Source: an uncultured Alphaproteobacteria bacterium (GTDB lineage: Bacteria > Pseudomonadota > Alphaproteobacteria > Rs-D84). Taken from it: a DNA stretch of 64,000 nt. The position numbers and the translations under genes were made by a program. The notes beneath the pieces are model-generated. The model searched no databases. It had not been told where the DNA came from and worked only from the letters and a program-made list of their open reading frames with translations. The DNA lies in the NCBI GenBank assembly GCA_944392815.1, contig CALXXY010000001.1:133141-197140 (forward strand), written 5' to 3'. Numbering within the stretch: the stretch's first letter is position 1; every line of letters begins with the position of its first letter. This document shows, one piece after another, positions 35,972 to 55,817 of the stretch.

Positions 35972-36048
35972 CGCGCATTTAAAAACACCGCCGTCCCGGC
36001 GGTGTTTTTATACCCCACCCCACACACAACCCAAACACACGGCACAAC

Positions 36049-36363: not shown

Positions 36364-36465
36364 TTTGTTCGGAATAACCGCAGCATGGAAACTGGTGCTA
36401 TAATATTTTTATCAATTATGGCGGTGGCATTGCATCGCAATTTCCCGACATCGACATTGTACATT

Positions 36466-36508
36466 TATAAAAAAACGCCCCGTTGGGCGTGTTTTATTTT
36501 ATGGCGGA
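36466..36508. repeat. 41-bp direct repeat (terminator hairpin + 'ttttatggcgga'), copy 1; copy 2 at 36641-36686
   Basis: aaaaaacgccccgttgggcgtgttttattttatggcgga occurs twice, 175 bp apart. Confidence 0.85.
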
Positions 36509-38031: not shown

Positions 38032-38048
38032 GTTACAAAGGTATCTAC

Positions 38049-40536: not shown

Positions 40537-40544
40537 GATTGCTT

Positions 40545-41012: not shown

Positions 41013-41506
41013 TTTTCTCTCCTTGTATTATATAAAATTTCTAAACTTTTTATGTCTGTTGCTGATTTTATCACAGATTGCAATGAATCTAAATCACTTT
41101 CGTATTCTTCATTATTATCCGGGGTATGTATCAGATTACTTGGTGCGTATTTTTCCCACGGGGTACAATATTTATTACGAATATATTTTTTTATTTGTGG
41201 TCCTGTTGCCAGTGCATTGTATCCCTCTACAATAACCAATAAATGATCCCTGCCAGTACGGTCTGGACCTAATTGATAATTTATTGTCGCATCTTTCCAG
41301 TCTTGTGTCATCTCCGTTTTATAATCTGGTGCCAGCACGGGCTGATAACCTATTAACATATCATAGGTCATCTTAAACCTTGCAGAGACTAAAACAGACA
41401 AATTCCGTGACTGTAATTGCTTATAAAACTCAAATCTTGCGCGAAAAGTCCGTAAACTCAGTTGCAGAGCATCTGGTTTTAATAGAAAAAGAGTTTTTTC
41501 TAACAT
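41009..41506 (-). CDS. Divergent nucleoside-diphosphate-kinase-like protein
   Basis: KTLFLLKPDA (cf. NDK ERTFIMIKPDG), LVIVEGYNALATG, NLIHTPD (cf. NIIHGSD, catalytic His). Confidence 0.4.
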   Translation of the reverse strand: MLEKTLFLLKPDALQLSLRTFRARFEFYKQLQSRNLSVLVSARFKMTYDMLIGYQPVLAPDYKTEMTQDWKDATINYQLGPDRTGRDHLLVIVEGYNALATGPQIKKYIRNKYCTPWEKYAPSNLIHTPDNNEEYESDLDSLQSVIKSATDIKSLEILYNTRREK

Positions 41507-41620
41507 ATATTATCCCTATGACGCAGATAAGGCTAACACATTGTTTTTATTTGTCAAATACTTCTATAAATCGTTGCGTGGTGTAAAATTGCTTGGTAAT
41601 ATTGCAGGAAAGGGGTAAAA

Positions 41621-42730
41621 ATGAAAGTTGCTATATTTTGCGACTATCTGCATTCGTTCGGCGGCACAGAATACTATAATGCAACCTTAGCAATGGAATT
41701 AAAAAAACGCGGTATAGATGTGCGTGTATTTGTATGTGAAAAGCCGCAAAATTTATATTGGTTTGACCGCTTGCAAAAACAAGGTATCACAACATACGCT
41801 CCAGAGCGTTTTCGCGAAAACCGTGATGACCACACTATAGATGCCGAATTTGCTGCCGATATTATGGACGAGTTTATTGCATGGGCACCCGATGTTATAC
41901 ATGCCAGCCCCGCTGCAAACATGCTGGGCGCATACATAAAACATAAAAAAGCCCCCCATCTGCCGATTGTGGCAACAGAACATACAACACCCAGCCCAGA
42001 TTCTGCTTTTTGGTATCCTGTGCACTTTGATAAAATTTTGAAAAACATAGATGCTTTTGTGGCGACCTGTAAGGCATCTGTAAATGGCATCAGACAATTT
42101 CATAAATTCCGTGGCCCTATACACATAATACCACACTTTATAAACAAGCCGCTTTTATATAGCACTCGGCGCATACCAAATTCGGTTGCTTGCATTGCCC
42201 GAATGTCACCAGAAAAGGGTATCGGTGTTTTACTGGTGGCATGGAAAAGCGTTATTAAACAAGTACCAGATGCAAAATTATACTTATACGGACACGGTCG
42301 TGCCAAGCTATATTTTGAACGTCTGGCACTATCTTTGGGACTGGGAAACACTGTTCGTTTTGCAGGCGTATTTGATCCACGTCGTGGTCCAAGTGCCATT
42401 GCTGGCAAGCATGACATATTCGTACAACCGTCCTTATTTGAAAGCATCCCTACATCGCTTATTGAACTAGCCTTGCTAGGCAAACCTGTAATTGCCACGG
42501 ATGTTGGTGGTGTTAGGGAGTTAATAAACAATAAAACAGGTGTTTTAATAAAAAGCGCATCAACAGACGTATTATCCAAAGCCATTGTGCAGTTATTGCA
42601 TGATAAAGAACGTCAAGCTGTGTTGGCGAAACAACTGCAACAATCTGTCGCTAATAAATATGACCTAAATGCCAATATTGATGCTATGATCAAGTTGTAT
42701 CAAGATGTTATACAAGCACAGAGCAAGTAA
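41621..42730 (+). CDS. Glycosyltransferase family 4
   Basis: FGGTEYYNATLA N-terminus; ESIPTSLIELALLGKPVIATDVGGVRELI (the E-X7-E region). Confidence 0.75.
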   Translation: MKVAIFCDYLHSFGGTEYYNATLAMELKKRGIDVRVFVCEKPQNLYWFDRLQKQGITTYAPERFRENRDDHTIDAEFAADIMDEFIAWAPDVIHASPAANMLGAYIKHKKAPHLPIVATEHTTPSPDSAFWYPVHFDKILKNIDAFVATCKASVNGIRQFHKFRGPIHIIPHFINKPLLYSTRRIPNSVACIARMSPEKGIGVLLVAWKSVIKQVPDAKLYLYGHGRAKLYFERLALSLGLGNTVRFAGVFDPRRGPSAIAGKHDIFVQPSLFESIPTSLIELALLGKPVIATDVGGVRELINNKTGVLIKSASTDVLSKAIVQLLHDKERQAVLAKQLQQSVANKYDLNANIDAMIKLYQDVIQAQSK

Positions 42731-42731
42731 T

Positions 42732-43910
42732 ATGAAACAATATATTTATGCTTCTAATCGCTACAAACGTTTTTTTGCAAAGTCTATAACTGGCATAAAA
42801 TTCATGCGTTCTTTGCACGTACAAGCCATAGATAATGCCTCTATCATAATTGAACCAGACACGCATCGTTTTGGTGTGTTTGATGCAAAAGGTGCACTTG
42901 TGCAAGATTCACTGCAATTACGCAATAAAATTGTGCAAAGGGCACCGAAATTTATATCGCCGACCAAAATTTTAGATATAGAGGCGGTGTATATAGGAAC
43001 CCTAGAGGACCATTTTGGACATTTCTTATTGGAACACACAAACCGCTTGTACCCCGTTTTGCATATTAAATATAAGCATATGAAATACGTCATATTAAAC
43101 AACAGAAATCTGCCAAAAGTATCAGACTTTGTGTATGAATTTCTGCAAATACTTGGCATCAATGAATCCGACATTTTTATAATAAATGATAATGTAAAAA
43201 TAAAACGATTATATATACCCCCAGTAGCATTTGAAATACCCAATAAATCTTCATCTGCATTTTGTAAAACATTTGATGCCGCTGCGGCGTACGCACAACC
43301 AGCGCACCGGATTAAAAAAGTTTATGTATCCAGGGAACGTTTGTCGGAGCGCGCTACATTTGGCGAACAACAAATACGACAACTATTTGAAAGGAATGGA
43401 TTTACTGTTATTTATCCAGAACAATTGTCTTTGTATGAGCAAATCTGTTATATGAAACATTGCAAATGCCTAGCTGGCATTGCTGGTTCTGCTTTGCATT
43501 TATCGCTATTTATGCCCAAGGGCAGCAAAGTAATACAAATTAAACGCAATAAACTGCTGGCAGACAATGCAAGCACACAGTATTTGTTGTGTAAAACTAA
43601 ACATTGCGACTTTGTTTTGGTGGATTGTGCGTGTGAAATCTTACCTACACATCACTGGTCGGAATTTCCTCAGATAATAGGTTCAACCAAATATTTAAAA
43701 CAGTTTTTAAGAGATTGTCAATTTAATTATACCGCCCAAGACCTTAGTTGTGATAAATCTATTCGTAAAAAATACCGCCACGCCTTTCGTGCAAAAGGTG
43801 GATTTATTCGCTATCAAATAAAACGCACTCTTGTTTATGTTTTGCCACACATGATGCCCACAAAACGATATAAAAATCGTATGCGTCGTTGGTTAAATAC
43901 GCATCTATGA
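42732..43910 (+). CDS. DUF563/GT61-like glycosyltransferase
   Basis: FGHFLLEHTNRLYPV motif typical of the DUF563 capsular/glycan transferases. Confidence 0.45.
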   Translation: MKQYIYASNRYKRFFAKSITGIKFMRSLHVQAIDNASIIIEPDTHRFGVFDAKGALVQDSLQLRNKIVQRAPKFISPTKILDIEAVYIGTLEDHFGHFLLEHTNRLYPVLHIKYKHMKYVILNNRNLPKVSDFVYEFLQILGINESDIFIINDNVKIKRLYIPPVAFEIPNKSSSAFCKTFDAAAAYAQPAHRIKKVYVSRERLSERATFGEQQIRQLFERNGFTVIYPEQLSLYEQICYMKHCKCLAGIAGSALHLSLFMPKGSKVIQIKRNKLLADNASTQYLLCKTKHCDFVLVDCACEILPTHHWSEFPQIIGSTKYLKQFLRDCQFNYTAQDLSCDKSIRKKYRHAFRAKGGFIRYQIKRTLVYVLPHMMPTKRYKNRMRRWLNTHL

Positions 43911-44146
43911 TAAAAATAATACGCGTATAAAATTGTCGGGATAAACAGTCCTAAAACTTCAAGTCGCGTCAGATAAGTTTTCAAGTCAGCCGTTTTATTT
44001 TGGTGATTACAGACATCGGTTGAAAACAAAATCGTTTTTTGGTATTCTGATAGTGAAAGGAGTCGAACTGGCACGTGCGTGCCATAATTGACCCCTTTTT
44101 TTATTTATGTGAATTTCGCATAAATAATAAAACAAGGAGAGAGGAA

Positions 44147-45466
44147 ATGAATAAATTACAAATTGAAAATTTGAAACTGGGTGATATCCACGCGTATAAA
44201 AACAACGCGAAAAAACACCCAGAATCTCAGGTGCAGCAGATTATATCTTCTATAACCAAGTTTGGTTTTAATAATCCAATATTAATCGATGAAAATAATG
44301 AAATTATCGCAGGTCATGGTCGTTTTATGGCCGCCCAGGTAATGAATCTGGAAACTGTTCCAACTGTAAAACTGTCACATTTAACGGATGCACAAAAACG
44401 TGCATATAGATTGGCCGATAACAAAATCGCTGAAAATGGTGGTTGGAATAAAGAATTGTTAAGTCTGGAAATCAAAGATTTGGAAAAGATATGCTTGAAC
44501 GATAATTTTGTAATCCAAGATATTGGATTTAATGATGCGGAATTTGATTCTATCGTTAATTTTACAGACACAAAACCAATCAATCCGAAAACCAATGCTG
44601 TTCCATTTATACCAGAAGATGAAATCATATCCAAACCTGGTGATATATGGCAATTAAGCAAACATCGCATAATCTGTGGTGACAGTTTAAACCCAGAAAC
44701 ATTTGCAAAACTGTTTGAAAATGATAAGGCAGATATGATTCTGCAAGATCCGCCATATAATGTCAAAATAGATGGGCATGTATGTGGTTCGGGCATTATT
44801 AAACACAAAGAATTTGCAATGGCGTCTGGCGAAATGACCGCAGATGAATTCACGCAGTTCTTGATGAATAACTTCGCATTGTGTAAACAGTATTCTAATA
44901 ATGGTTCCCTGCATTATAACTTTATGGATTGGCGTCATGTCTTGGAAATCACAACTGCGGGCAAGAACATATTTGATAAATTCATCAATATGTGTGTATG
45001 GGTAAAAACATCTGGTTGTATGGGCAGTTTATACAGAAGCCAACATGAACTATGTTTTATATTCCAAAACGGCAAAGGATCACATAATAACAATGTTCAA
45101 CTTGGTAAATATGGCCGATACAGAACCAATGTATGGCAATATGCAGGCGTGAATACTTTTGGCAAACATAAACAAGACGGCATCATGCATCCAACGGTTA
45201 AGCCCATAGAGATGCTAAAAGATGCAATATTGGATGTATCAAAACGTGGTGATATTGTGTTGGACAGTTTTCTTGGCTCGGGTAGCACTTTAATTGCATG
45301 TCAACAATCTGGACGAATTTGTTATGGCATAGAATATGAACCGTTGTACATCGATACAACAATACGCAGGTTTCAGAATTTATTCGGGATAGATGCGATA
45401 AATTTATCCATCGATAAAACATACAATGAAATATTGAAAGAGCATAAGGGGGGTAATAATGTATGA
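44147..45466 (+). CDS. ParB-like nuclease domain fused to a DNA (N6-A/N4-C) methyltransferase
   Basis: aaggagagagg RBS; N-terminal ParB/Srx motif (KFGFNNPILIDENNEIIAGHGRFMAA); MTase motif IV ILQDPPYNV and motif I IVLDSFLGSGSTLIACQQSGR. Confidence 0.75.
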   Translation: MNKLQIENLKLGDIHAYKNNAKKHPESQVQQIISSITKFGFNNPILIDENNEIIAGHGRFMAAQVMNLETVPTVKLSHLTDAQKRAYRLADNKIAENGGWNKELLSLEIKDLEKICLNDNFVIQDIGFNDAEFDSIVNFTDTKPINPKTNAVPFIPEDEIISKPGDIWQLSKHRIICGDSLNPETFAKLFENDKADMILQDPPYNVKIDGHVCGSGIIKHKEFAMASGEMTADEFTQFLMNNFALCKQYSNNGSLHYNFMDWRHVLEITTAGKNIFDKFINMCVWVKTSGCMGSLYRSQHELCFIFQNGKGSHNNNVQLGKYGRYRTNVWQYAGVNTFGKHKQDGIMHPTVKPIEMLKDAILDVSKRGDIVLDSFLGSGSTLIACQQSGRICYGIEYEPLYIDTTIRRFQNLFGIDAINLSIDKTYNEILKEHKGGNNV

Positions 45467-45833
45467 TTATGAAATAGGATATGGTCGCCCACCAAAATCG
45501 ACCAGATTTAAACCCGGTCAATCGGGTAACCCAAAGGGTCGTAAAAAGGGTTCTAAAAACACGTACAGCATATTACGTGATATATTGAATCAGAAAGTCA
45601 CAGTAAATACGACTGACAAAGGTGCAATACAAATTACTAAACAACAAGCAATTTTATTGCAAGCAACTAATCAGGCGGTTTCTGGTGATATTAAAGCAAT
45701 AACATTTGTTATGCCGTACCTGTTGAAGATGGACGAAAAAGAAGCAGAACGTAATACATTGAATAAACAATTAAATATTAATGATAAACAAATAATTGAA
45801 ACATGGTTGAAGAACAATGGGACAAAACACTGA
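45459..45833 (+). CDS. DUF5681-like phage protein (terminase small-subunit-like)
   Basis: GRPPKSTRFKPGQSGNPKGRKKGSKN signature; overlaps the start of terL. Confidence 0.5.
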   Translation: MYDYEIGYGRPPKSTRFKPGQSGNPKGRKKGSKNTYSILRDILNQKVTVNTTDKGAIQITKQQAILLQATNQAVSGDIKAITFVMPYLLKMDEKEAERNTLNKQLNINDKQIIETWLKNNGTKH

Positions 45834-47286
45834 TATTTTACTATCACTTTTGCGAACTGATTTTAAATCGTTTTGTATAAAAGTGTTTAATACGATTTCA
45901 AGTGCAGACACATACATGGATAATTGGCATGTAGATGTGATTTGTAATGAAATCGAACAGATGATCGATGGTAAGAATAACCGTTTGATAATAAATATTC
46001 CGCCACGTAATATGAAATCTATTATCTGTTCTGTTGCGCTACCGGCATTTTTGTTGGGGCTCGATCCATCAACAAGAATTATTTGTGTAAGTTATAGTGA
46101 CGAATTGGTAAAAAAGCTATCCAATGATTGCAAAATGGTTATGACAAGTAGTTGGTATAAAGAACTATTTCCGCGTACAGTGATAGATTCAAAACATTGT
46201 TCAGCAACAAATTTTGGAACTACACGCAGTGGCGGTCGTTTTGCAACATCTGTTGGTGGACCATTAACGGGTATAGGTGGCGATTGGATTATTATAGACG
46301 ATCCATTAAAAGCCAGTGATGCATGTTCCGACACAGTAAGAGGAAAAGTAAATAATTGGTATACCAATACATTGTATTCGCGTCTAAATAACAAAAACAC
46401 AGGTCGTATTTTAGTTGTTATGCAACGTTTGCATGAAATGGATTTAACAGGATATTTATTATCAAAAACACTTGGATTCAAACAAATTCGAATACCAATA
46501 ATTGCAGAAGATGACGAGAATTGGTCTTTTACAGATAAATTTAATCGTAACCATAATATAAAACGCAAAAAAGATGAACTACTGCACCCCGCACGTGAAA
46601 ATTTTGACGCGGTCACCGGTATGCGTAATATGATGGGAGAATTTGCTTTTGCCGGGCAATATCAACAACGCCCCGTTCCACAAGATGGTGGCATAGTAAA
46701 AAGGGGATGGTTGCATTATTATAATCAAGTGCCTAAAATATGGCGCATCATCATTTCTTGGGATACTGCCGCAAAAGCTGGTTCTGCAAATGCTTATTCG
46801 GCATGTTCGATTTTTGGAATATGTGACGGTGACAAGCCTGGTAAATACAACCGAAAAATCATATTATTGGAAGTTCGCAGAATGAAGTTAGAATTTCCGG
46901 CTCTAGTGAACTTTATTGAAAGATTTCCAGAAGAAATTCGTGATAAATATCGACAATATTTTACCAACGATTGCGTCCAAGTTGAGACTATCATAGAAGA
47001 TGCGTCATCTGGAACCGCCATAATACAATTTTTACAATCAAAAGGTATACGTGTCAGACCAATAAAGTCCGAAACAGATAAAGAGACCAGATTGACTGGC
47101 ATCACGCATCTTTTAGAAAACGGAACCGTTTTATTACCAAATCAACAAAACGGTGACTTAGTTGATTTCTTTGATGAATTGTTTAAATTTCCAAATTCTA
47201 CATTCAAAGACATGGTCGATTCTTTTTCTCAGGGCGTTCGATACATAGATGACTCCTACATCTCCGGATCACGCGGGTATTTCTGA
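45817..47286 (+). CDS. terL: Phage terminase large subunit (GTA/alphaproteobacterial phage type)
   Basis: W.VDVICNEIEQ...RLIINIPPRNMKSI..LPAFLLGLDPSTRII (ATPase domain) and IIIDDPLK; C-terminal nuclease WDTAAKAG. Confidence 0.7.
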   Translation: MGQNTDILLSLLRTDFKSFCIKVFNTISSADTYMDNWHVDVICNEIEQMIDGKNNRLIINIPPRNMKSIICSVALPAFLLGLDPSTRIICVSYSDELVKKLSNDCKMVMTSSWYKELFPRTVIDSKHCSATNFGTTRSGGRFATSVGGPLTGIGGDWIIIDDPLKASDACSDTVRGKVNNWYTNTLYSRLNNKNTGRILVVMQRLHEMDLTGYLLSKTLGFKQIRIPIIAEDDENWSFTDKFNRNHNIKRKKDELLHPARENFDAVTGMRNMMGEFAFAGQYQQRPVPQDGGIVKRGWLHYYNQVPKIWRIIISWDTAAKAGSANAYSACSIFGICDGDKPGKYNRKIILLEVRRMKLEFPALVNFIERFPEEIRDKYRQYFTNDCVQVETIIEDASSGTAIIQFLQSKGIRVRPIKSETDKETRLTGITHLLENGTVLLPNQQNGDLVDFFDELFKFPNSTFKDMVDSFSQGVRYIDDSYISGSRGYF

Positions 47287-47455
47287 TGCCTACAATTATT
47301 AAAAAACCATTGAATGTGCAAAATTCTCTATCTGAATCCTATTTTATGTAAAATCTTTCTGGGACCCCACCGGGTCCACGTATATCTATTACTCTGCCAA
47401 ATAAATTTAGCAATGATCTATGATGGTGTAATTGCCACTAAACATTAGGTTTATT

Positions 47456-48088
47456 TTAAGCAATCCATTTTGACTGTTTATCCATATATAGTGGTTCAAG
47501 ATTGCGCCTAAATTCTTCAACAATATTACGGATTTCTTTATTGATCTTATCATCAGGATTGATTTTATCAGCTTTCGTTTCGCAAAATATTAAATCATAT
47601 AACGGTTTGTATTCAGGAATGTCCTTACCATAATATAAATTTTTGGAAGCTTGCATAATCACCGAGTTATAATTAGTCAATTTAAGCATAGCCGCCATGA
47701 TTCCGTTACCCCAATACATATAAGCATTGTTTTGTAAAGAACGCAACCTATCTATAATATCTTGCTGTGTTATCAATCGGTGATGCGGAACAAGATAGTT
47801 TATTCTTTCTGGATGTATATCTACCTTGCCAGGATTTGTAATTGCTTCTGATTTAATCCACTCTAGAGTCTCATCATGCTCTGTTTGGGCTATCATGGGC
47901 ATTCTAACATGTATGTATAAATCCTGGATATCGTAAACAGCGCGCATAATTTCAGCAGCAAGTTCAATTTTCTTTTTACCAATAAATTCCCGCTTCCAAG
48001 TATATAAAGCAACCACGGCGAGAATGGGTGTAATAACAGAAGCAATTGCAGAAATAATACTATAAATATTGCAAGTCATCGATATCAC
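47456..48088 (-). CDS. Hypothetical membrane-anchored protein downstream of the R-M genes
   Basis: N-terminal TM IISAIASVITPILAVVALY; no motif recognised. Confidence 0.35.
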   Translation of the reverse strand: MISMTCNIYSIISAIASVITPILAVVALYTWKREFIGKKKIELAAEIMRAVYDIQDLYIHVRMPMIAQTEHDETLEWIKSEAITNPGKVDIHPERINYLVPHHRLITQQDIIDRLRSLQNNAYMYWGNGIMAAMLKLTNYNSVIMQASKNLYYGKDIPEYKPLYDLIFCETKADKINPDDKINKEIRNIVEEFRRNLEPLYMDKQSKWIA

Positions 48089-48095
48089 CCGTTGT

Positions 48096-49271
48096 TTATT
48101 TTAAACGATCAAACACATAATCAACAGGAGATTCGTATTTATTCGGCATCATAGATGATACAAATCTTCTAACTTCCGGACGAGAATTTAACATATTCTC
48201 TATGATATGACGTTGCAAATCAGGAAACGCCCTGTGTGGTGCTAAAGCTCTGTGACATACTGGACATAATTTTACCAAATTATCCAGTACATCAACCGCA
48301 TCAGAATCATTAGCATATGCAATAACATGATTTACTTCAAAATAATATCTATTGTTTCGTGGCATCAGGAATGAACGATCTTTGATATCATACCGATCAC
48401 CACAACCAACGCATACATCCGCGAAAGTTTCTCTTGCGAATGCAACAATTTTTTGATTTCTGATAGAAAATTTATTTTCTGGCACCACATCAATTGGTTC
48501 ACGAAATTCAAGATCTTGTCTTAAGGCGTTTATTTCATTTGGCGTCAACTCTCTGCCAAGAATCTTTTGACGATAAAAAATCAGACGTTCTTCAAACATG
48601 TGATACGCATGAACTTCACCCAAATTTCTTATATTTACTCTTAAGACATCTGTTTTATATTTATTTATATTCGGGTATCTAGTTATTACGTTTTCGTAAA
48701 ACCATTTCAAATTTATTCTAATTTGAGTATTTCTCTCCCTTTCTCCTGTGGCAAACTGCGGTTGTAATTCTCTAAAGTTTAGGTTCAAACGTTCTATCAA
48801 ATTATTTGAAGACAATAACAGTTTAAAAATATTGTCTACATATCGTGGAGTAGGATTTTTAAGATCCAACGCATATAAGCCACGATTAAAATCTGCGCTT
48901 CCACGCAACAAAAACATTGCCAGAGCAACTTCTTCATCTAGTGGGTAATTAACTGGCAATTTATTCAATAATACGATGATTTTTTCATAAATAGCATTCA
49001 GAAAATCATCCAATGATATGCGTTTGTCATTGACGACAGTTGCAGCTATGGTTGTTGCGTTTATTTGAACAAAATCAATTCCATATTTACGAGTCAGCGC
49101 TTGAGCTGTTTTCTTATGTGAATCCGCTGGCAAAGGTAAAAACTTCGTTATTCTGTACCTGGATTGAATTTCAAAATTTCCGTTTTTTTCATCGGCAGCA
49201 TTGAAAAACGCTACGAAAAGAGTTTCTATCGGCATTTGTAATAATTGACCTATATTCATAACAATCCCCAC
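48096..49271 (-). CDS. HNH nuclease, probable restriction endonuclease of the adjacent MTases
   Basis: C-terminal CVGCG...EVNHVIAYAND...CPVCH HNH motif; start overlaps the MTase stop. Confidence 0.55.
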   Translation of the reverse strand: MGIVMNIGQLLQMPIETLFVAFFNAADEKNGNFEIQSRYRITKFLPLPADSHKKTAQALTRKYGIDFVQINATTIAATVVNDKRISLDDFLNAIYEKIIVLLNKLPVNYPLDEEVALAMFLLRGSADFNRGLYALDLKNPTPRYVDNIFKLLLSSNNLIERLNLNFRELQPQFATGERERNTQIRINLKWFYENVITRYPNINKYKTDVLRVNIRNLGEVHAYHMFEERLIFYRQKILGRELTPNEINALRQDLEFREPIDVVPENKFSIRNQKIVAFARETFADVCVGCGDRYDIKDRSFLMPRNNRYYFEVNHVIAYANDSDAVDVLDNLVKLCPVCHRALAPHRAFPDLQRHIIENMLNSRPEVRRFVSSMMPNKYESPVDYVFDRLK

Positions 49272-50011
49272 TAAATATCATTAAAAATTCTTTTATATGA
49301 CATGTTGTAGAATTTTTCATCCAATTCTACACCTATAAAGTGTCTGTTTTGACGGACACATGCAATACCTGTACTGCCACTACCCATAAATGGGTCTAAC
49401 ACCAAATCCCCGGGGTTTGTTAAGGTTTTTACAAGAAATTCCATCAAACATACAGGCTTCTGGGTTGGGTGCCCCAATCTTTCTTTTCCACTTGGCGATG
49501 GGCATTTGATCTCTGGTCTTAAATATGAGCCACTAGTATTATTAAATGTCCATTTCTTTTTGCCTTTGACACACCATATTGCCAATTCATAATCAGCAAC
49601 GAACCGACTGGACATATTACGTGGCATTGGATTTGGTTTAATCCACCTTATCAAGTCTTTTACAGAGTATCCATGTTGCTCTAACGTTTTTGCTATGGTT
49701 CCGATATTCAAAAAACTATTAAATATAACGATATTACCGCCGTCTTTTAATAATGTATCAGCAATATCTAACCAAGATAATAAGTCAAAGCCTTTATCCC
49801 ATTCACCAAAATCCACCCCCTGTCTTTTAGCAGATTTCATTGTTCCAAAATTATTGCTCTTAGATATGTTATATGGTGGATCTGTAATAATAGCATCAAC
49901 TTTTATGCCTTTCTTAGCTAAATCGGTCATAGCAATCAAACAGTCTCCGTGTATAAGTTGAACGGATTCTTTGTTGAGTAAGCCATTAAAATCCATCTGA
50001 CTATTATTCAT
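49271..50011 (-). CDS. DNA methyltransferase, N6-adenine/N4-cytosine (beta-class order)
   Basis: Motif IV DAIITDPPYN precedes motif I LVLDPFMGSGSTGIA. Confidence 0.8.
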   Translation of the reverse strand: MNNSQMDFNGLLNKESVQLIHGDCLIAMTDLAKKGIKVDAIITDPPYNISKSNNFGTMKSAKRQGVDFGEWDKGFDLLSWLDIADTLLKDGGNIVIFNSFLNIGTIAKTLEQHGYSVKDLIRWIKPNPMPRNMSSRFVADYELAIWCVKGKKKWTFNNTSGSYLRPEIKCPSPSGKERLGHPTQKPVCLMEFLVKTLTNPGDLVLDPFMGSGSTGIACVRQNRHFIGVELDEKFYNMSYKRIFNDI

Positions 50012-51071
50012 CTTCAGCTTTTATTATCTCTTGTGCTATTGCGTTGGCTAATCTAGGCGGCACAGCATTGCCAATCTGTTTTATTATAGACGATTTATTG
50101 CCATAAAAGACAAAGTCATCTGGAAATGATTGGATACGCGCTGCCTCTCGCGGCGTTATAGACCTGTTCAAAAACGGGTGATTATTACGACCATTTGATG
50201 GCGTATCAAATCTGGTAACGATGGTAGGTGACGGTTTGTCTTTTTCAAGACGCCCCCATGTTCCACCAAATGTAGATTTAGTCAAATGCTCTTTTGGTAA
50301 AAACTCTTTGCCTTTTTCTGGTGGAATTAAAGATAACCTGTATATGGCTACATCTGAATGCTTTGTCGCCACATGATTATACAATTTCTTGCTGTTTTTG
50401 CGAAGCTCTTTTTGATAATCACTTTGTGCAGCATTTCTATATTCTGAAATAAAATCTCCTTCACCAGATTCTAGATAAGCTAAATCTGAAATGGCGTCCC
50501 AAACCGAAACCTGTCTTGCTTGTAAATTTTGAACAGGTAGTTTGATTTCGCCCCTTTTTGTACCTATAAATACAGCTCTTCTTCTGGTTTGTGGTACGCC
50601 AAAGTATCGGGCATCCAATACCCCATAATTAACAGTATACCCTTGTCTGTGCGCTTCCTTCAAAATAAGTTTCAGGAAATAACCATTTTCTGTACCAAGT
50701 ATACTTGCAACGTTTTCAATGACAAAATATTTTGGATTAAAGAACTTAGTATATCTAAAAAATTCTTTGAACAAAAAGTTTCTCTCATCTTCTCTGCCAA
50801 GACATTTACCACGTGTTGAAAAACCCTGACATGGGGGCCCCCCAACGATGATATCAATTTTTGCGTCTATTTGTTTTGCGATATCTTTTATATCTAACTT
50901 ACAAATATCGCCTATAAATACCTTTGCATTTGGATTGTTTTTAGCATATGAAGCCGCTATCGTTGGGTCCCACTCCAACCCAGCGACAACATTAAAACGA
51001 CCAGTCTGTTCAAAACCAAGACTCAAACCGCCAACACCGCAAAACAATTCAAACAAATTGAGTTTTTTCAT
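50004..51071 (-). CDS. DNA (cytosine-5)-methyltransferase
   Basis: Motif I LFCGVGGLSLGF, motif IV GGPPCQGFS, motif VI ENV, motif X QIGNAVPP. Confidence 0.9.
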   Translation of the reverse strand: MKKLNLFELFCGVGGLSLGFEQTGRFNVVAGLEWDPTIAASYAKNNPNAKVFIGDICKLDIKDIAKQIDAKIDIIVGGPPCQGFSTRGKCLGREDERNFLFKEFFRYTKFFNPKYFVIENVASILGTENGYFLKLILKEAHRQGYTVNYGVLDARYFGVPQTRRRAVFIGTKRGEIKLPVQNLQARQVSVWDAISDLAYLESGEGDFISEYRNAAQSDYQKELRKNSKKLYNHVATKHSDVAIYRLSLIPPEKGKEFLPKEHLTKSTFGGTWGRLEKDKPSPTIVTRFDTPSNGRNNHPFLNRSITPREAARIQSFPDDFVFYGNKSSIIKQIGNAVPPRLANAIAQEIIKAEDE

Positions 51072-51335
51072 TATTCCTTCCGATAGAAAAACTATACAAG
51101 AATTTTACAAACAAAATCAAGGCGATTTACAACTTTCTATAAGCCCTATTTTTACCCAATGTTACTATTCGGAACACTTTAAGGTACAATAAATCGCAAA
51201 ATCTGTGAATGTTATCCAAATAGGGGTGGATAGTCATTTCTTTTATATATCAGACATTTTGTGTAATAGAGTTTTATCAACTTGACTTTCTGCGCTTTGT
51301 AAGCAGTAATTGCACAACCTTAAAAGGATGTGATT

Positions 51336-51773
51336 ATGGCAAAAATTGAATTACCGACGACATTGGATGAATTACGTGCGATGTCGTTCGCAGATCGGGT
51401 GGCATTATGGGCAAAATACAGTCCATATCCGTTTAAACGGCAAATGCGGTCGCTTTGGTATTATATTCAATGTGACCGCCTAAACCTGCGAATTGAGCAT
51501 AAATATCTAGTAAAAATCCGCAAATACAAAGATGAACCAGAAAAATGCTTAACCAGTGTTCAAAAAAACAAATATAACTTTGTTCCTGGCACAATTCTGA
51601 CCCGATATTTCAAGGGCATAAAACACACCATCTTAGTCAATGATGATGGCAGTTTTTCTTATAACGGCGATAAATATTCCACATTGTCGGGGGTAGCAAC
51701 TAAAATTGCTGGTATGAAAATGTCTGGCAACTTCTTTTTTGGTATAAACAAAAGGTACAAACATGACAATTAA
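51336..51773 (+). CDS. DUF2924 protein (recombinase-associated)
   Basis: LDELRAMSFADRVALWAKYSPYPFKRQMRSLWYYIQ pattern; overlaps the recombinase start; aaagga RBS before the ATG at 51336. Confidence 0.5.
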   Translation: MAKIELPTTLDELRAMSFADRVALWAKYSPYPFKRQMRSLWYYIQCDRLNLRIEHKYLVKIRKYKDEPEKCLTSVQKNKYNFVPGTILTRYFKGIKHTILVNDDGSFSYNGDKYSTLSGVATKIAGMKMSGNFFFGINKRYKHDN

Positions 51774-53352
51774 GTGCGCAATTTATACGCGTAAATCAAC
51801 AGAACACGGACTTGAACAAGAATTTAATTCTCTGCAAAACCAAGAAGAGTCCTGCAAAGCATATATTGCATCGCAATCCTTCAACGGCTGGCAATATTAT
51901 AAAACATACAGCGATGCGGCGATATCTGGTGGGACTATGGAACGCCCGGCACTAAAACAAATGTTGGATGATATGGCACACGGTTTAGTAAATACGGTGG
52001 TCGTTTACAAAGTTGATCGATTATCGCGTTCAATCTTGGATTTCCACAATATGATGAAATATTTTGAAAGATACGGTGCAAATTTTGTATCCATTACTCA
52101 GTCATTTGATACCAGTACATCAATGGGGAAACTGACACTGAATATGTTGCTGTCATTCGCCCAATTTGAACGCGAGGTGTCATCGGAACGTGTGCGTGAT
52201 AAAATCCGTGCTAGTAAGGCCAAGGGTCTGTGGATGGGCGGTAATCCGCCACTGGGGTATGATGTGATAGATAAAAAGTTGATCCCGAACACGGCTGAGG
52301 CCACAAACGTTCGGAAACTTTTTGAAAAGTATCTGGAACTGCAATCTGTAAATGCATTAACAGAATATGTCGCGGCGCACAAAATATATGCCAAACAATG
52401 GACAACCGCCAAAGGTATTATCAAAGGTGGTCGTCCCATTGCAAAAATGAGTATGCACCGTATCCTGCGGGATAAGATTTACATCGGTCAAATTGAAAAC
52501 AAAAAAGAAGGCACTTTTGCCAAAGGCGAACACGAACCAATAATTCCCGAAGAACTGTTTAATCGTGTTCAGGTTGCGCTGGCTAATAATTCCAACAACA
52601 AATCACCCAGCACGCGTGCACCGAATATACTAACTGGCAAACTGTTTAATCATAATGGTGTTAAATTTATAAATCAACGCACAAGTGGTAAAGGCAAAAA
52701 GACCGCGTATTATTATGCAACCAAAGGCTTCTATCTGACCGCGACACGCGTGGATGCAATCGCCATAAAAACAATAACGGATTTTCTGAATAGCGATATG
52801 TCGAATTTGCCTATAAACTTGGCCACCATATTAAAACGAATTGATATTACAAATATGACATATACACAAAAACGAGATTTGATTCAATCGCTGGTTGAAA
52901 AGGTTGTATATTCGCAGGAACAATTGATTTATACGCTTACGACCGATGCTACAAAATTGCAACAATTTGTATCCGAAAATTATGTAAATCAAAATACAGA
53001 TAAAATGGAATACATAATTGGAGACAATAGCGTCACAATTACCGAAAAAGTATTTCTTCGTAAATATGTGAATACAGTATACGACCGTGGCAAAAATGGG
53101 GTATTAAATGTCACCGACAACAACCATCTGATTCTGAAAGCCTTTGCCACCGCATGGAAATATCGTGAATTATACGAACAAGATGGTAATGTAGATAATA
53201 TTATTCGCTACCTGCACACTTCGCCACGCCAATTCTACCGTTATCTGGGCATCGCATACATGACCCCAGACAATGTCAACGAAATCTTGTCTGGGAAATT
53301 AAAAATTAATGTTAATGATTTATTTCGGATTGCGAGAGAAAACGATTTTTAA
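51763..53352 (+). CDS. Large serine recombinase (integrase)
   Basis: IYTRKST (catalytic Ser), VDRLSRS, recombinase domain KAKGLWMGGNPPLGYD; 529 aa. Confidence 0.85.
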   Translation: MTIKCAIYTRKSTEHGLEQEFNSLQNQEESCKAYIASQSFNGWQYYKTYSDAAISGGTMERPALKQMLDDMAHGLVNTVVVYKVDRLSRSILDFHNMMKYFERYGANFVSITQSFDTSTSMGKLTLNMLLSFAQFEREVSSERVRDKIRASKAKGLWMGGNPPLGYDVIDKKLIPNTAEATNVRKLFEKYLELQSVNALTEYVAAHKIYAKQWTTAKGIIKGGRPIAKMSMHRILRDKIYIGQIENKKEGTFAKGEHEPIIPEELFNRVQVALANNSNNKSPSTRAPNILTGKLFNHNGVKFINQRTSGKGKKTAYYYATKGFYLTATRVDAIAIKTITDFLNSDMSNLPINLATILKRIDITNMTYTQKRDLIQSLVEKVVYSQEQLIYTLTTDATKLQQFVSENYVNQNTDKMEYIIGDNSVTITEKVFLRKYVNTVYDRGKNGVLNVTDNNHLILKAFATAWKYRELYEQDGNVDNIIRYLHTSPRQFYRYLGIAYMTPDNVNEILSGKLKINVNDLFRIARENDF

Positions 53353-53357
53353 TGAAA

Positions 53358-55286
53358 TTATTTTTTTAGGATATTGTAATATTGATCCTCAAGATATTGT
53401 ATGCCATCTTCTTTATCAATATGACTATTTAACATTTGTTTCATGTTAAATAAAGCTTGCTCGTTTTCATTTAAAATATCAGCCCATGTTTTTATATATA
53501 ATCTTTTATTTGGTGTGTCTTGTACACCATAATTTATAAAACCTGTTTTCTTATTTTCTATTTCTTTTTGAGCTTCCAGTTTAATTTTAGAAGAAACCAC
53601 AATTATATCCATTTCGTATTTATCAAACTGAGCATTTGACGTAATAGTGTTGTAGTATTTTTTAATTTGAGTAACTTCATCAAATCCTATATCAACACTA
53701 GGTCTTTTCAACTCAACTATTAGTGCTTTCGGAGCATCGCCAGAAAAACCTTTTCTAGCAAAAAATAAATCGGGTATATACTCTCCTCCAACAATATCAC
53801 CCTGACAAGCAAAATCTTTTAAACTATCGCGCAATTCTTTTATAATCGTGCTAAAAGCATTATCCGAAGCTAAAAAATTAAACCTTTCGCCAAAAATCCA
53901 CGTTTCATTTTCAATAATTTTATGTAATTGGGAACGTTCTTTTATGTTTTTTAAATCACCATATGCTATTTGCCTTAATCCCTCTAAAAATTTTAATCTG
54001 CGTTGTATTGTTGAAGCGGTTTTGATTATTGAATTTAAAGATACCTCTTTTAGTAAATCAGAAAAATCTTGCATTTCTTCAGCGGTTAAATCCATCAGTT
54101 TTTCCAATACGTCTTTAAAATTTTCAGGATCTTTTTGTATAACTAATTGAATAGTATTAACAATGCCCTTTCTGATATATTGCGGTGTAGAACTTTTAAA
54201 TACTGATGGACGAGTAGTATTTAGTTTTATTAGAATTTTATCATAAATACGTTTAGTCTGTTCTTCTGATACGGTTAGTTCACTATCATCATCGTACGGA
54301 TAAATTCCGTCTCGCTTAAGGATCTGGATAATGTCTTCGGATTTTTGCTTATTATGATTGAAAACAAAAGCATTTTTCATTTCAATCGCTTGGTTTTTTA
54401 TATAAGATAATTCTGGGTCTAAATTAGCAACACCTAAACGATTTTCTTTATACGCATTGGCAACCCTATCTGCTGCTACATACACAGAGTGATTTGACGT
54501 TTTCTTGCTATCATCCAATTTATCTTCCAATAGAGTATTCCAACTTGAATCACACCAAAACAAACGATTATTTTCTGGAGTAGTGGTTTTCCAAACAATC
54601 GTCTTCATTTTTACATCTTCATTTGGATTTGGCAAATTGCTAATATCACTTGTAGCTTCAATATGATCAGAAATATCTAGCAGGACACCGTTTAATGTTA
54701 CAGATATTCGTTTATCTTCAAGAATAGTAACAAAAAAACGTTCTAAGGTTTCTTTTAAGTCTTGTTGTGATGGAATTTTTATAGTTTTCCCATTTGCATA
54801 TGCTGTAAAAATAGTCCCTGTAATTGTTTTTATATCAGAAACATCCGCATCGTCTTCTATTTCTGGTTTTAAAGGATCATTGATATTTATAGTAACTCTT
54901 GTAGAATCTTTGTCTGTTTTGGTTTTCCATTCTACAATATTACCTAAAGCAAAACTTTTAAATCTACCTTGTCCATTACGTCCATGTACCAATCGATGGA
55001 AATCGTTTGTTTGTCCGAGCCTTTTGTTTGACTTTCCGAGAGTTAGAAAGGGGTCAACTTCTGTGTCCTCGTTTGGTTTATAAAAACCCTTACCATTATC
55101 TATAACTGTGATTTTATCGACCACCTTTAATTCATTCATGTAGATATTTATATCGATCTTGCTTGCAGATGCATCTAACGAATTATAGATTATTTCTTCA
55201 AGAGCCTCAACTGGATTTAAATTGCTATAATTAGTGTTAATTAATTTAGGATTGGTTCGTACATTAGCAGTTCGTATCTTTGGCAT
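53358..55286 (-). CDS. Uncharacterised GHKL (HATPase_c) ATPase fused to a C-terminal PD-(D/E)xK nuclease-like domain
   Basis: N-box EALEEIIYNSLDA, G1 DNGKGF, G2 GRNGQGRFKS; C-terminus GEYIPDLFF...ALIVELKRP (PD...ExK). Confidence 0.55.
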   Translation of the reverse strand: MPKIRTANVRTNPKLINTNYSNLNPVEALEEIIYNSLDASASKIDINIYMNELKVVDKITVIDNGKGFYKPNEDTEVDPFLTLGKSNKRLGQTNDFHRLVHGRNGQGRFKSFALGNIVEWKTKTDKDSTRVTININDPLKPEIEDDADVSDIKTITGTIFTAYANGKTIKIPSQQDLKETLERFFVTILEDKRISVTLNGVLLDISDHIEATSDISNLPNPNEDVKMKTIVWKTTTPENNRLFWCDSSWNTLLEDKLDDSKKTSNHSVYVAADRVANAYKENRLGVANLDPELSYIKNQAIEMKNAFVFNHNKQKSEDIIQILKRDGIYPYDDDSELTVSEEQTKRIYDKILIKLNTTRPSVFKSSTPQYIRKGIVNTIQLVIQKDPENFKDVLEKLMDLTAEEMQDFSDLLKEVSLNSIIKTASTIQRRLKFLEGLRQIAYGDLKNIKERSQLHKIIENETWIFGERFNFLASDNAFSTIIKELRDSLKDFACQGDIVGGEYIPDLFFARKGFSGDAPKALIVELKRPSVDIGFDEVTQIKKYYNTITSNAQFDKYEMDIIVVSSKIKLEAQKEIENKKTGFINYGVQDTPNKRLYIKTWADILNENEQALFNMKQMLNSHIDKEDGIQYLEDQYYNILKK

Positions 55287-55484
55287 ATATTTTCCTGTTT
55301 TTCAATACTGATTTTATTATTCATTTTATATAAAAGCAATTTATTTTATTATGAAAACTGGCATCGGGTTTTTGGGCAGAGTATATAGTTGTGATGAAAT
55401 TGGGCGGATTGTTGGCAACTGGCGATATACACTGGTAATATCGTCCGCAAAGATCGCCAGAAACGGGGCGAAAAAGAACATCCC

Positions 55485-55511
55485 GTGTGATTGCCACGGG
55501 ATGTCAGATAT
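55485..55511 (-). terminator. Terminator of tRNA-Ser (inside the island end)
   Basis: catcccgtg-gcaatcac-acgggatg followed by ttcttttt on the minus strand. Confidence 0.65.
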
Positions 55512-55514
55512 TAC

Positions 55515-55604
55515 TGGCGGATGGGGAGGGATTCGAACCCCCGGTGGAGTTGCCCCCACAACGGTTTTCAAGACCGTCGCAATCGACCGCTCTGCCACCC
55601 ATCC
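55515..55604 (-). tRNA. tRNA-Ser (TGA)
   Basis: Minus strand ggatgggtggcagagcggtcgattgcgacggtcttgaaaaccgttgtgggggcaactccaccgggggttcgaatccctccccatccgcca; long variable arm. Confidence 0.9.
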
Positions 55605-55817
55605 TAAACTTTTTTACCGACGGTCTCTCAAACCTACGGTTGTGTTCGCTGACCGCTACCCAACGGTGCCGGCAAAACGTCACGAACGCGCGTATTATAC
55701 AGTACTGGGGGCGTGTTGTCAATTCATCTGTTGGAGGAAAATTATTACGCTTGCGAACGTGCGGGTATATGATATCATTATCCCCATGGAGAGGGCCAAC
55801 ATAAAAGGCAATAAAAC

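What the first reader, a model, noticed from the sequence alone, without database searches (positions are those of the whole stretch)
53358..55286. Orphan 642-aa GHKL-ATPase / PD-(D/E)xK nuclease fusion at the island's att end: candidate uncharacterised defence protein
The N-terminus carries the three hallmark boxes of the Bergerat fold (E..N..DA, DxGxG, GxxGxG) as in MutL/MORC/Hsp90. The C-terminal 150 aa contains a clean restriction-endonuclease core: GEYIPDLFF followed ~18 aa later by IVELK. The gene sits between the island's serine recombinase and the attR/tRNA-Ser junction, which is classic defence-island real estate. It has no partner methylase in operon, although two MTases and an HNH nuclease lie 2-7 kb away on the same element. 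Aravind and colleagues described prokaryotic MORC-like GHKL ATPases associated with R-M contexts. I do not recognise this as a named system (Gabija, Septu, PARIS, Lamassu and similar), so it may be an unnamed single-gene ATP-dependent nuclease system.
Basis: partly seen in the sequence, partly recalled or inferred. Interest (0 to 1): 0.8.

Follow-up and report, generated by a model that had tools for sequence, protein, structure and literature searches.

The report
ATPase-nuclease phage-defence gene, known kind
The gene is real and does fuse an ATP-driven GHKL "clamp" module to a restriction-type nuclease, but it is not an orphan: it belongs to a very large family that is a full-length, distant relative of VcSduA, a single-gene anti-phage nuclease of Vibrio cholerae validated in 2025.

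Summary
ORF 53358-55286 (-) encodes a 642-aa protein. All Bergerat-fold boxes and a D...ExK nuclease core sit at the stated residues, and all are invariant in 42 homologues. The gene is under strong purifying selection (dN/dS 0.05-0.09). Structure prediction gives a MORC-like GHKL+S5 ATPase, a helical linker and a PD-(D/E)xK domain close to N.BspD6I, Shedu, FokI and NucS.

The protein is not an orphan: 1,410 clusters (50% identity) match at E<=1e-30, on plasmids, prophages and islands. The architecture was described in 2008 as paraMORC3. It was classed in 2023 as Shedu type 1D and shown to defend against phages in 2025 (VcSduA, where E27A and K557A abolish defence).

A profile-profile comparison of this family with the VcSduA family is collinear over 547 columns (99.2%, E 2.4e-19, about 15% identity). 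It aligns E31 with E27 and K527 with K556/557. Yet none of the 543 published VcSduA hits carries this family's motifs, and PADLOC and Pfam SduA_C do not recognise it.

It is therefore an untested sister clade of a known single-gene, ATP-dependent defence nuclease, carried as end cargo of a serine-recombinase island at tRNA-Ser. New member of a known kind; modest interest.

The parts
53358..55286 (-). Complete gene, 642 aa plus stop: GHKL ATPase - S5 transducer - helical linker - PD-(D/E)xK nuclease
   Evidence: ORF list and translation. dN/dS 0.05-0.09 against three orthologues. 113 homologues of the same length and architecture.
54777..55286 (-). GHKL (Bergerat-fold) ATP-binding domain, aa 1-170
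   Evidence: Pfam HATPase_c_3 E 6.9e-14, aa 27-137. Profile against PDB: MutL, PMS2, Topo VI-B and MORC2 at 1e-9 to 1e-6. Foldseek MORC2/3/4 at E 1e-10.
55170..55196 (-). GHKL motif I, E31-IIY-N35-SL-D38-A (predicted general base Glu and Mg-binding Asn)
   Evidence: N35 and D38 are invariant. E31 is conserved except for 7 homologues that carry Gln. E31 aligns with VcSduA E27.
55086..55100 (-). GHKL motif II, D63-N-G-K-G67 (adenine-binding Asp)
   Evidence: D63, G65 and G67 are invariant; coordinates checked.
54963..54983 (-). GHKL motif III / ATP lid, G102-RN-G105-Q-G107-R108
   Evidence: G102, G105, G107 and R108 are invariant; coordinates checked.
54417..54767 (-). S5-fold transducer (middle) domain, aa about 174-290
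   Evidence: Beta-rich block in the AF2 model. It is included in the 350-450-column Foldseek alignments to MORC ATPase-S5 modules. It aligns with the VcSduA family through W232, C245 and Y269.
53961..54416 (-). All-helical linker/clamp region, aa 291-442
   Evidence: DSSP of the AF2 models. The weak PADLOC SduA match covers aa 410-469.
53361..53960 (-). PD-(D/E)xK nuclease domain, aa 443-642
53886..53939 (-). Nuclease motif I region: E450-RSQL-H455 ... W463-IFG-E467
   Evidence: E450, W463 and G466 are invariant; E467 and H455 are conserved in at least 90%. They align with E468/H472 and W493/E497 of the VcSduA family.
53763..53789 (-). Nuclease motif II: G-G500-EYIP-D506-LF
   Evidence: D506 is invariant and G500 is conserved in at least 90%. 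D506 aligns with D526 of the VcSduA family.
53700..53720 (-). Nuclease motif III: IV-E525-L-K527-R-P529
   Evidence: K527 and P529 are invariant; E525 is conserved in at least 90%. K527 aligns with K556 of the V. fluvialis protein, which corresponds to VcSduA K557.
53655..53669 (-). Nuclease motif IV: Q540-IKK-Y544 (RecB-like QxxxY)
   Evidence: Q540 and Y544 are invariant. Q540 aligns with Q574 of the VcSduA family.
55515..55604 (-). tRNA-Ser(TGA), the integration target. The island-derived sequence supplies its 3'-terminal 26 nt (55515-55540).
   Evidence: ARAGORN. Homology with L002 and L081 stops exactly at 55540. The same island end abuts tRNA-Ser(GGA) in L002 and L082.
55477..55505 (-). 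Terminator-like hairpin just after the tRNA, upstream of the gene. It suggests the gene is not read through from the tRNA promoter (55722-55694).
   Evidence: Consensus scan only.
51763..53352 (+). Large serine recombinase of the island, convergent with the gene (context, not part of the system)
   Evidence: Pfam Resolvase 1.5e-39 plus Recombinase. PHROG 95 integrase 6.7e-96.

Best explanation
The gene encodes a stand-alone anti-phage, or more broadly anti-mobile-DNA, nuclease of the GHKL-S5-PD-(D/E)xK kind (paraMORC3 / GHKL-type 'Shedu type 1D'). It belongs to a large sister family of V. cholerae VcSduA.

Likely mechanism:
- The protein dimerises.
- ATP binding to the N-terminal GHKL domains closes an N-terminal gate, as in MutL, MORC and Topo VI-B.
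- Through the S5 transducer and the long helical linker, this gate controls access or activation of the paired C-terminal PD-(D/E)xK sites (E450/E467, D506, E525, K527, Q540).
- These sites then cut invading DNA directly, without killing the host.

The gene travels as cargo at the tRNA-Ser end of an island of about 11.5 kb that carries a serine recombinase and resembles a prophage or satellite.

Shown here by computation: an intact gene under purifying selection; all catalytic motifs invariant; fold assignments; full-length collinear homology to the VcSduA family; no conserved partner gene; residence on islands, plasmids and prophages.

Shown by others for VcSduA only: phage protection in E. 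coli and V. cholerae; dependence on E27 and K557; a non-abortive phenotype.

Inferred: ATP-gated dimer clamp, DNA as substrate, direct cleavage. Unknown: the trigger and how self is spared.
For: - Domains and motifs.
- Purifying selection: dN/dS 0.05-0.09. The gene stays intact at 88% identity in L081, where the adjacent recombinase is reduced to a remnant.
- Homology to the validated system: hhalign of A1 against the VcSduA-family alignment A3 gives Prob 99.2%, E 2.4e-19 over 547 collinear columns. E31 aligns with E27, D506 with D526, E525xK527 with E554xK556, and Q540 with Q574.
- A3 is anchored on a V. fluvialis protein that is 61% identical to the VcSduA N-terminus and has E27/K556.
- VcSduA phenotype, from PMC12137116.
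- Single-gene unit: the most frequent neighbour family occurs in 4 of 80 loci.
- Mobile and defence contexts: 46 plasmids; Pasteurella phages Pmp3 and Pmp14, where the gene sits as a moron between tail and anti-repressor genes; PHROG 6203 at E 2.6e-59; 26 IMG/VR contigs; neighbours such as MTase, Abi_C, SNF2 and AAA_13.
Against: - No member of this particular family has been tested.
- Identity to the VcSduA family is only about 15%. The link rests on profile-profile comparison and shared architecture.
- PADLOC 2.0 gives no significant full-length match.
- Pfam SduA_C does not match.
- The dimer/clamp step is by analogy. No multimer model was run. The monomer model has pTM 0.52, so the domain arrangement is uncertain.
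- Seven homologues carry Gln at the catalytic Glu, so ATP hydrolysis may not be universally needed.
- No own promoter was found by the simple scan between 55287 and 55476.
Confidence: 0.68

Rival explanations
1. It is the ATPase-nuclease arm of a restriction-modification-like system. It works in trans with the island's methyltransferases (44075-45466, 49271-50011, 50004-51071), as proposed in general for prokaryotic MORC/paraMORC proteins. Self DNA would be spared by methylation.
For: Three MTases and an HNH nuclease lie on the same island. Iyer et al. place most paraMORCs in R-M contexts and leave open unlinked R-M partners for paraMORC3. P0024 lies beside an N6_N4 MTase and a SNF2 helicase. 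PADLOC 'REase_II' models match the N-terminal GHKL part.
Against: No MTase, or any other gene, is a conserved neighbour in 80 loci. The MTase-MTase-HNH genes form their own overlapping operon on the island. Homologues sit alone in phages and plasmids. Iyer et al. describe the nuclease-bearing paraMORC3 proteins as stand-alone. VcSduA protects when expressed alone in E. coli.
Confidence: 0.12
2. Its primary role serves the mobile element rather than the host. It could exclude or compete with other elements (helper or rival phages, plasmids), or stabilise the island in an addiction-like way.
For: The gene always sits on or next to mobile DNA. Here it is the end of an island with a serine recombinase, a ParB-MTase, DUF5681 and a TerL packaging module. 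Elsewhere it is on plasmids, prophages and viral contigs. A serine recombinase is the most recurrent neighbour, though in only 4 of 80 loci.
Against: This overlaps mechanistically with defence. The gene survives when the island decays: the recombinase is truncated in L081 and TerL is deleted in L002. That argues for a benefit independent of the element's life cycle. No antitoxin-like partner is conserved.
Confidence: 0.12
3. It is a housekeeping DNA-repair or recombination enzyme: a MutL-like ATPase joined to a NucS/RecB-like nuclease.
For: The N-terminus matches MutL/PMS2 profiles. The nuclease resembles NucS/EndoMS and carries a RecB-like QxxxY motif.
Against: The distribution is patchy and horizontally transferred: 306 of 185,579 species genomes by one peptide pattern, across many phyla. 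The gene has 31% GC in a 47% GC genome. It is located on islands, plasmids and phages. It has no MutL C-terminal domain and no NCBIfam equivalog score.
Confidence: 0.03
4. The resemblance to VcSduA is only architectural, by convergent fusion of a GHKL module and a restriction-fold nuclease. The function of this family would then be unrelated to Shedu-type defence.
For: Identity is about 15%. None of the 543 published VcSduA hits carries this family's motifs. Canonical SduA_C profiles align only at Prob 15%, E 0.0018.
Against: The alignment with the VcSduA family is one collinear block of 547 columns. It spans the GHKL, S5, linker and nuclease regions, with idiosyncratic non-catalytic positions shared (LxxC, Y269, E-x4-H, W-x-x-x-E, ExKxP). 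Convergent fusion would not give this.
Confidence: 0.05

Closest known systems
VcSduA (A1552VC_00276) of the V. cholerae VSP-II WASA variant; Adams et al. 2025, PMC12137116
   Same: Same length class (about 640-680 aa) and the same order of modules: GHKL, S5/middle, helical linker, PD-(D/E)xK. It is a single gene on a genomic island. Profile-profile homology is collinear over 547 columns (99.2%, E 2.4e-19), and the two mutated residues of VcSduA align with E31 and K527. Like this protein, the VcSduA-type protein tested here (V. fluvialis, 61% identical to the VcSduA N-terminus) is not recognised by Pfam SduA_C. The authors say their genes were not predicted as a known defence system.
   Different: Identity is about 15%. 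Family signatures differ: ELIWNxxDADA and HGxxGxGRFK here, against EAVVNSIHAI and GxKGVGRFxWLK there. The spacing from motif III Lys to motif IV Gln is 13 residues here and 18 there. None of the 543 published hits belongs to this family. This family is untested experimentally.
paraMORC3 family (Iyer, Abhiman, Aravind 2008, PMC2292703)
   Same: Defined as GHKL + S5 + a conserved C-terminal restriction-fold domain with E-D-ExK motifs related to RecB nucleases. Described as stand-alone genes without conserved neighbours, prevalent in Proteobacteria and Bacteroidetes, and laterally mobile. All of this fits.
   Different: No paraMORC3 sequence from that paper was available, so identity of the family was judged by its defining features, not by alignment. 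That paper predicted no defence phenotype.
Canonical Shedu (SduA, Pfam SduA_C/DUF4263; B. cereus and E. coli structures 8TI8/8TI9, 8PS4/8PS5)
MutL / MORC / Topo VI-B type GHKL-S5 ATPases
   Same: The N-terminal 350 aa match MORC2/3/4, GyrB, Topo II, TRAP1 and MutL ATPase-transducer modules. All ATP-binding motifs are present.
   Different: There is no MutL C-terminal dimerisation/endonuclease domain and no CW or coiled-coil MORC parts. The MORC-specific S5 motif was not examined. The nuclease is a restriction-fold domain in the same chain.

Membership tests
GHKL ATPase superfamily | Bergerat-fold motifs I (ExxxN), II (DxGxG), III (GxxGxG) and a matching fold | tested here: met
   Pfam HATPase_c_3 at 6.9e-14. 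The motifs are invariant in 42 sequences. Foldseek to MORC, GyrB and MutL at 1e-10 to 1e-9.
paraMORC3 (Iyer et al. 2008) | GHKL domain followed by an S5-fold domain | tested here: met
   Foldseek alignments of 350-450 columns cover the ATPase plus transducer of MORC2/3/4. A beta-rich block lies at aa 174-290.
paraMORC3 (Iyer et al. 2008) | Conserved C-terminal restriction-fold domain with E-D-ExK motifs, related to RecB nucleases | tested here: met
paraMORC3 (Iyer et al. 2008) | Stand-alone gene without a conserved neighbourhood; sporadic, laterally mobile distribution | tested here: met
   The largest neighbour family occurs in 4 of 80 loci. Many phyla carry the family, as do plasmids, phages and viral contigs.
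paraMORC3 (Iyer et al. 2008) | Sequence clustering with the authors' paraMORC3 members | not testable with these tools
   The paper's member list and sequences are not held.
VcSduA family (GHKL-type Shedu, type 1D) | Full-length homology to VcSduA, with the ATPase Glu and nuclease Lys conserved | tested here: met
   hhalign of A1 against A3: Prob 99.2%, E 2.4e-19, 547 columns; E31 aligns with E27 and K527 with K556/557. Against the single V. fluvialis sequence, only the N-terminal 226 columns reach 93.6%. The C-terminus scores E 2.6e-4 with motifs in register.
VcSduA family (GHKL-type Shedu, type 1D) | Recognised by the published VcSduA model, i.e. among the 543 MacSyFinder hits | tested here: not met
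   No listed hit contains GQGRFK, GEGRFK, ELIWN or ELVWN. The model itself could not be run. The family is therefore filed as a sister family, not as a VcSduA orthologue.
VcSduA family (GHKL-type Shedu, type 1D) | Anti-phage protection that depends on both ATPase and nuclease residues | not testable with these tools
   Experimental. Shown only for VcSduA.
Shedu (SduA) sensu stricto | C-terminal domain matches Pfam SduA_C (PF14082, DUF4263) | tested here: not met
   None of 42 members match at E<=0.1. None of the 120 best C-terminal relatives carries PF14082. The control canonical Shedu in L113 matches at 1.3e-25, while the neighbouring VcSduA-type protein also fails.
Shedu (SduA) sensu stricto | Remote sequence or structure similarity of the nuclease domain to SduA | tested here: inconclusive
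MutL | MutL equivalog score and a MutL C-terminal domain | tested here: not met
   NCBIfam mutl scores 28 bits against a cut-off of 180, and only aa 25-72 match.
Other named GHKL-containing defence proteins (MzaB, Tiamat TmtA) | Match to the PADLOC/NCBIfam models | tested here: not met
   MzaB at E 0.029 / 0.01 on the GHKL motif only. TmtA is hit by 1 of 42 members at 0.02.

The most novel reading that the evidence does not exclude
This sister family has at least 1,410 clusters, and the published VcSduA census, PADLOC and Pfam SduA_C all miss it. It might not be simply 'another VcSduA'. It could have its own trigger or target, for example plasmid or satellite DNA rather than phage, or a particular DNA structure or modification. 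It could also use the GHKL module as an ATP-binding switch rather than a hydrolysing motor, as the natural Glu-to-Gln variants at the catalytic position in seven homologues hint. It would then be a second, mechanistically distinct class of GHKL-gated nucleases.
Probability: 0.15. Interest if true: 0.5.

Novelty: new member of a known kind. Interest (0 to 1): 0.3.

Why it matters
The practical value is for annotation. A very large family is labelled only 'ATP-binding protein' or 'hypothetical protein' in public records. It occurs on plasmids (including Salmonella, Psychrobacter, Streptomyces and rhizobia), prophages and islands. It can now be linked, over its whole length, to an experimentally validated single-gene defence nuclease. 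Yet PADLOC 2.0, Pfam SduA_C and the published VcSduA hit list all fail to detect it, and defence-system censuses that rely on such models would be expected to undercount this kind.

How a GHKL ATPase gates a restriction-fold nuclease, and what triggers it, is still unsolved even for VcSduA. A second, very divergent family with the same invariant positions gives a useful comparison set for structure and mutagenesis. It does not open a new category of biology.

Tried and rejected
- **Direct att repeats.** No copy of the tRNA 3' 26-mer (up to 3 mismatches) or 16-mer was found at the left end, and no informative direct repeats. The left island boundary stays undefined. This is not unexpected for a serine recombinase.
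- **C-terminal profile against PDB sequences.** Only spurious IgG Fc hits.
- **Second word-index search with the full alignment.** It returned the same set plus one, so the search was wasted.
- **Third word-index search with the C-terminal profile.** It listed only fragments and GHKL-less relatives, never PF14082, and did not show the twilight zone.
- **Looking for VcSduA by residue numbering.** No protein among 262 family members has an E-to-K spacing of 530. Cluster look-ups gave no names.
- **VcSduA sequence from the journal paper.** The journal supplement is truncated and the Gu et al. supplement is not held. I finally obtained the N-terminal 399 aa from the bioRxiv Table 5. I obtained full-length family members from plasmids.
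- **PADLOC scans of 20 individual homologues.** They did not find the member with the best SduA hit (6.4e-6). The three homologues that did hit, like the window protein, match only aa 400-469.
- **Single-sequence hhalign to one canonical Shedu.** It gave nothing. The seven-sequence profile gave a weak alignment with motifs in register.
- **Rejected readings.** MutL orthologue, MzaB, Tiamat, histidine kinase and Hsp90 chaperone. All match only on the generic GHKL motifs.
Full report
**1. The observation**

The window has an ATG-initiated ORF at 53358-55286 on the minus strand, encoding 642 aa.
- E31-IIY-N35-SL-D38-A
- D63-N-G-K-G67
- G102-RN-G105-Q-G107-R
- GGEYIP-D506-LF
- IV-E525-L-K527-RP, 19 residues after D506

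They are not chance look-alikes. In an alignment of 42 homologues down to 22% identity (A1), the following are invariant: N35, D38, D63, G65, G67, G102, G105, G107, R108, E450, W463, G466, D506, K527, P529, Q540 and Y544. E525, H455, E467 and G500 are conserved in at least 90%.

The gene is functional. Against three orthologues at 88-92% protein identity, dN/dS is 0.05-0.09.

**2. Domains**

Pfam gives HATPase_c_3 at E 6.9e-14. A family profile hits MutL, PMS2, MLH1, Topo VI-B, MORC2/3/4 and Hsp90 chains in the PDB, all through the N-terminal 200 residues.

The AlphaFold2 model of the whole protein has pLDDT 84.9 and pTM 0.52. It aligns over 350-450 columns with the ATPase-plus-transducer modules of MORC2, MORC3, MORC4, GyrB, Topo II, TRAP1 and MutL (Foldseek E about 1e-10). 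The N-terminal half is therefore GHKL plus an S5-fold middle domain. It is followed by an all-helical stretch (aa 291-442).

I modelled the last 248 residues separately (pLDDT 89.9, pTM 0.85). The result is a PD-(D/E)xK fold.
- Foldseek: NucS/EndoMS first (E 1.4e-3). E. coli SduA has the highest query-normalised TM score, 0.44.

At the sequence level, 36 of 42 members weakly hit Pfam HSDR_N_2 and none hits SduA_C/DUF4263. The invariant QxxxY after ExK is the RecB-type motif IV.

**3. Not an orphan**

The word-index search found 113 full-length relatives of 634-700 aa. The exhaustive HMM search of 1.84 billion cluster representatives found 1,410 at E<=1e-30. The best 150 all match at E<1e-171, nearly all over the full length.

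One peptide pattern alone recovers relatives in 306 species genomes. These span Alpha-, Beta- and Gammaproteobacteria (including Vibrio, Burkholderia, Ralstonia and Pandoraea), Firmicutes, Cyanobacteria, Acidobacteria, Nitrospira and others.

Relatives also occur:
- on 46 plasmids, annotated 'ATP-binding protein';
- in Pasteurella phages Pmp3 and Pmp14, as a moron between tail and anti-repressor genes;
- as PHROG 6203, function unknown, at E 2.6e-59;
- on 26 IMG/VR contigs.

**4. Context**

The gene lies between a large serine recombinase (51763-53352, convergent) and tRNA-Ser(TGA) (55515-55604). The gene has 30.9% GC, the island 35.5% and the right flank 47.5%.

The island from about 44.1 kb carries:
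- a ParB-MTase, DUF5681 and a large terminase;
- an overlapping C5-MTase / N4-N6-MTase / HNH operon;
- DUF2924 and the recombinase.

The same island, about 90% identical, occurs in an alphaproteobacterial MAG (L002) with most of the terminase deleted. In both L002 and L081 the homology stops exactly at 55540, which is 26 nt inside the tRNA gene. The flanking tRNA in L002 and L082 is tRNA-Ser(GGA), not (TGA). I found no left-end repeat.

A terminator-like hairpin (55505-55477) follows the tRNA, so the gene is probably its own transcription unit.

Across 80 loci, no neighbouring gene family recurs in more than four. Individual neighbourhoods contain MTase, Abi_C, SNF2, AAA_13 and DUF4238 genes. 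In L081 the recombinase is reduced to a remnant while this gene is intact.

**5. What is known**

Iyer, Abhiman and Aravind (2008) defined paraMORC3 as GHKL + S5 + a C-terminal restriction-fold domain with E-D-ExK motifs related to RecB nucleases. They described stand-alone genes in Proteobacteria and Bacteroidetes. Every listed feature is met here.

Gu et al. (2023) list GHKL (HATPase_c_3) plus a middle-domain N-terminus among type 1D Shedu proteins.

Adams et al. (2025) showed the following for V. cholerae VcSduA, described as GHKL + 'DUF4263':
- It protects E. coli against Drexlerviridae and V. cholerae against phage X29.
- E27A and K557A abolish protection.
- Protection is non-abortive.
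- DefenseFinder and PADLOC had not predicted it.

**6. Direct test against VcSduA**

The journal supplement is truncated. The bioRxiv Table 5 gave the first 399 residues of the V. cholerae IEC224 protein and of other hits. With that sequence I found full-length family members on plasmids. A V. fluvialis protein is 61% identical and has E27 and K556. I aligned seven of these members as A3.

Profile-profile comparison of A1 with A3 gives Prob 99.2%, E 2.4e-19. It is one collinear block of 547 columns running from motif I to the C-terminus. Aligned residue pairs (this protein / VcSduA family):
- E31 / E27
- N35 / N31
- the DxGxG and GxxGxGR boxes
- E450, H455 / E468, H472
- W463, E467 / W493, E497
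- D506 / D526
- E525xK527xP / E554xK556xP
- Q540 / Q574

Identity is about 15%. The two families are distinct. None of the 543 published VcSduA hits contains this family's signature peptides.

Pfam SduA_C does not recognise the VcSduA-type protein either, whereas the canonical Shedu gene next to it on the same plasmid scores 1.3e-25. Against a seven-sequence canonical SduA_C alignment (A4):
- this family scores Prob 15%, E 0.0018;
- the VcSduA family scores Prob 21%, E 0.001.

Both alignments have the catalytic motifs in register. So this family is as much, or as little, a 'Shedu' as VcSduA is. The robust statement is that both are sister families of the paraMORC3 kind.

**7. Mechanism**

- Shown here: an intact, selected gene with complete ATPase and nuclease motif sets, no partner gene, and a mobile context.
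- Shown for the sister protein: defence needs both active sites and does not kill the host.
- Inferred by analogy with MutL, MORC and Topo VI-B, and with the dimer model reported for VcSduA: ATP-driven closure of the GHKL gate, transmitted through S5 and the helical linker, controls paired C-terminal nuclease sites that cut invading DNA.
- Unknown: the trigger and how self DNA is spared.

Seven homologues have Gln for the catalytic Glu. This hints that nucleotide binding rather than turnover may be the switch in some members.

**8. Verdict**

This is a new, untested member, in a divergent sister family, of a known kind of defence protein.

Interest is modest at 0.3. The value lies mainly in annotation and in comparative mechanism.

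Noticed in passing
Homologues P0011, P0012, P0015, P0016, P0022, P0024, P0025 (position equivalent to E31; window 55194-55196): Seven family members (43-46% identical to the window protein) carry Gln instead of the motif-I catalytic Glu of the GHKL ATPase. All other ATP-binding and nuclease residues are kept. This is the classic hydrolysis-dead substitution, occurring naturally.
   Followed up: partly
window 48096-51071 (-), plus the ORF at 47456-48088 (-): A C5 cytosine MTase (50004-51071), an N4/N6 MTase (49271-50011) and a 391-aa HNH protein (48096-49271) have overlapping or abutting ORFs. This looks like a self-contained type II R-M operon on the same island.
   Followed up: partly
window 44075-47286 (+); L002 15875-16463: A ParB-MTase fusion, DUF5681 and a large terminase form a phage packaging-type module with no capsid or tail genes nearby. 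Most of the terminase is deleted in the 90%-identical island copy in MAG OZ007020.1. The element looks like a decaying prophage or a satellite.
   Followed up: partly
window 55515-55604; L002 7685-7775; L082 9685-9775: The same island end abuts tRNA-Ser(TGA) in the window and L001, but tRNA-Ser(GGA) in L002 and L082. Homology ends 26 nt inside the tRNA. The recombinase may therefore use the shared 3' end of two tRNA-Ser isoacceptors.
   Followed up: partly
L113 (V. fluvialis IncC plasmid NZ_AP028130.1) 1-4953: A canonical Shedu gene (SduA_C at 1.3e-25) overlaps by 4 bp the start of a VcSduA-type GHKL-nuclease gene. Both lie directly after type I R-M hsdM and hsdS genes. Two 'Shedu-like' nucleases sit in one apparent operon.
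   Followed up: no
P0355 (Bosea, 510 aa), P0344, P0382, P0403 and other hits: Many relatives of the C-terminal linker+nuclease part lack the GHKL domain (260-510 aa). Some are on megabase contigs. They may be split genes, pseudogenes, or a GHKL-less version of the nuclease.
   Followed up: no
window 36470-36508 and 36646-36684; window 32395-32953: There is a perfect 39-nt direct repeat containing a terminator-like GC hairpin, 176 nt apart. Separately, a family of five 28-nt repeats lies inside the ORF at 31443-33227.
   Followed up: no
window 55694-55722 (-): A perfect sigma-70 consensus (TTGACA, 17 nt, TATAAT) lies upstream of tRNA-Ser.
   Followed up: no
L116 (Ca. Manganitrophus plasmid CP114562.1) 1-3480: Two adjacent genes annotated 'ATP-binding protein'. 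The second is a VcSduA-family member. The first was not examined.
   Followed up: no
window 36000-55500: The low-GC stretch (31-42%) extends left of the island through a glycosyltransferase/NUDIX cluster (37-44 kb). The island therefore sits beside another probably horizontally acquired surface-polysaccharide region.
   Followed up: no
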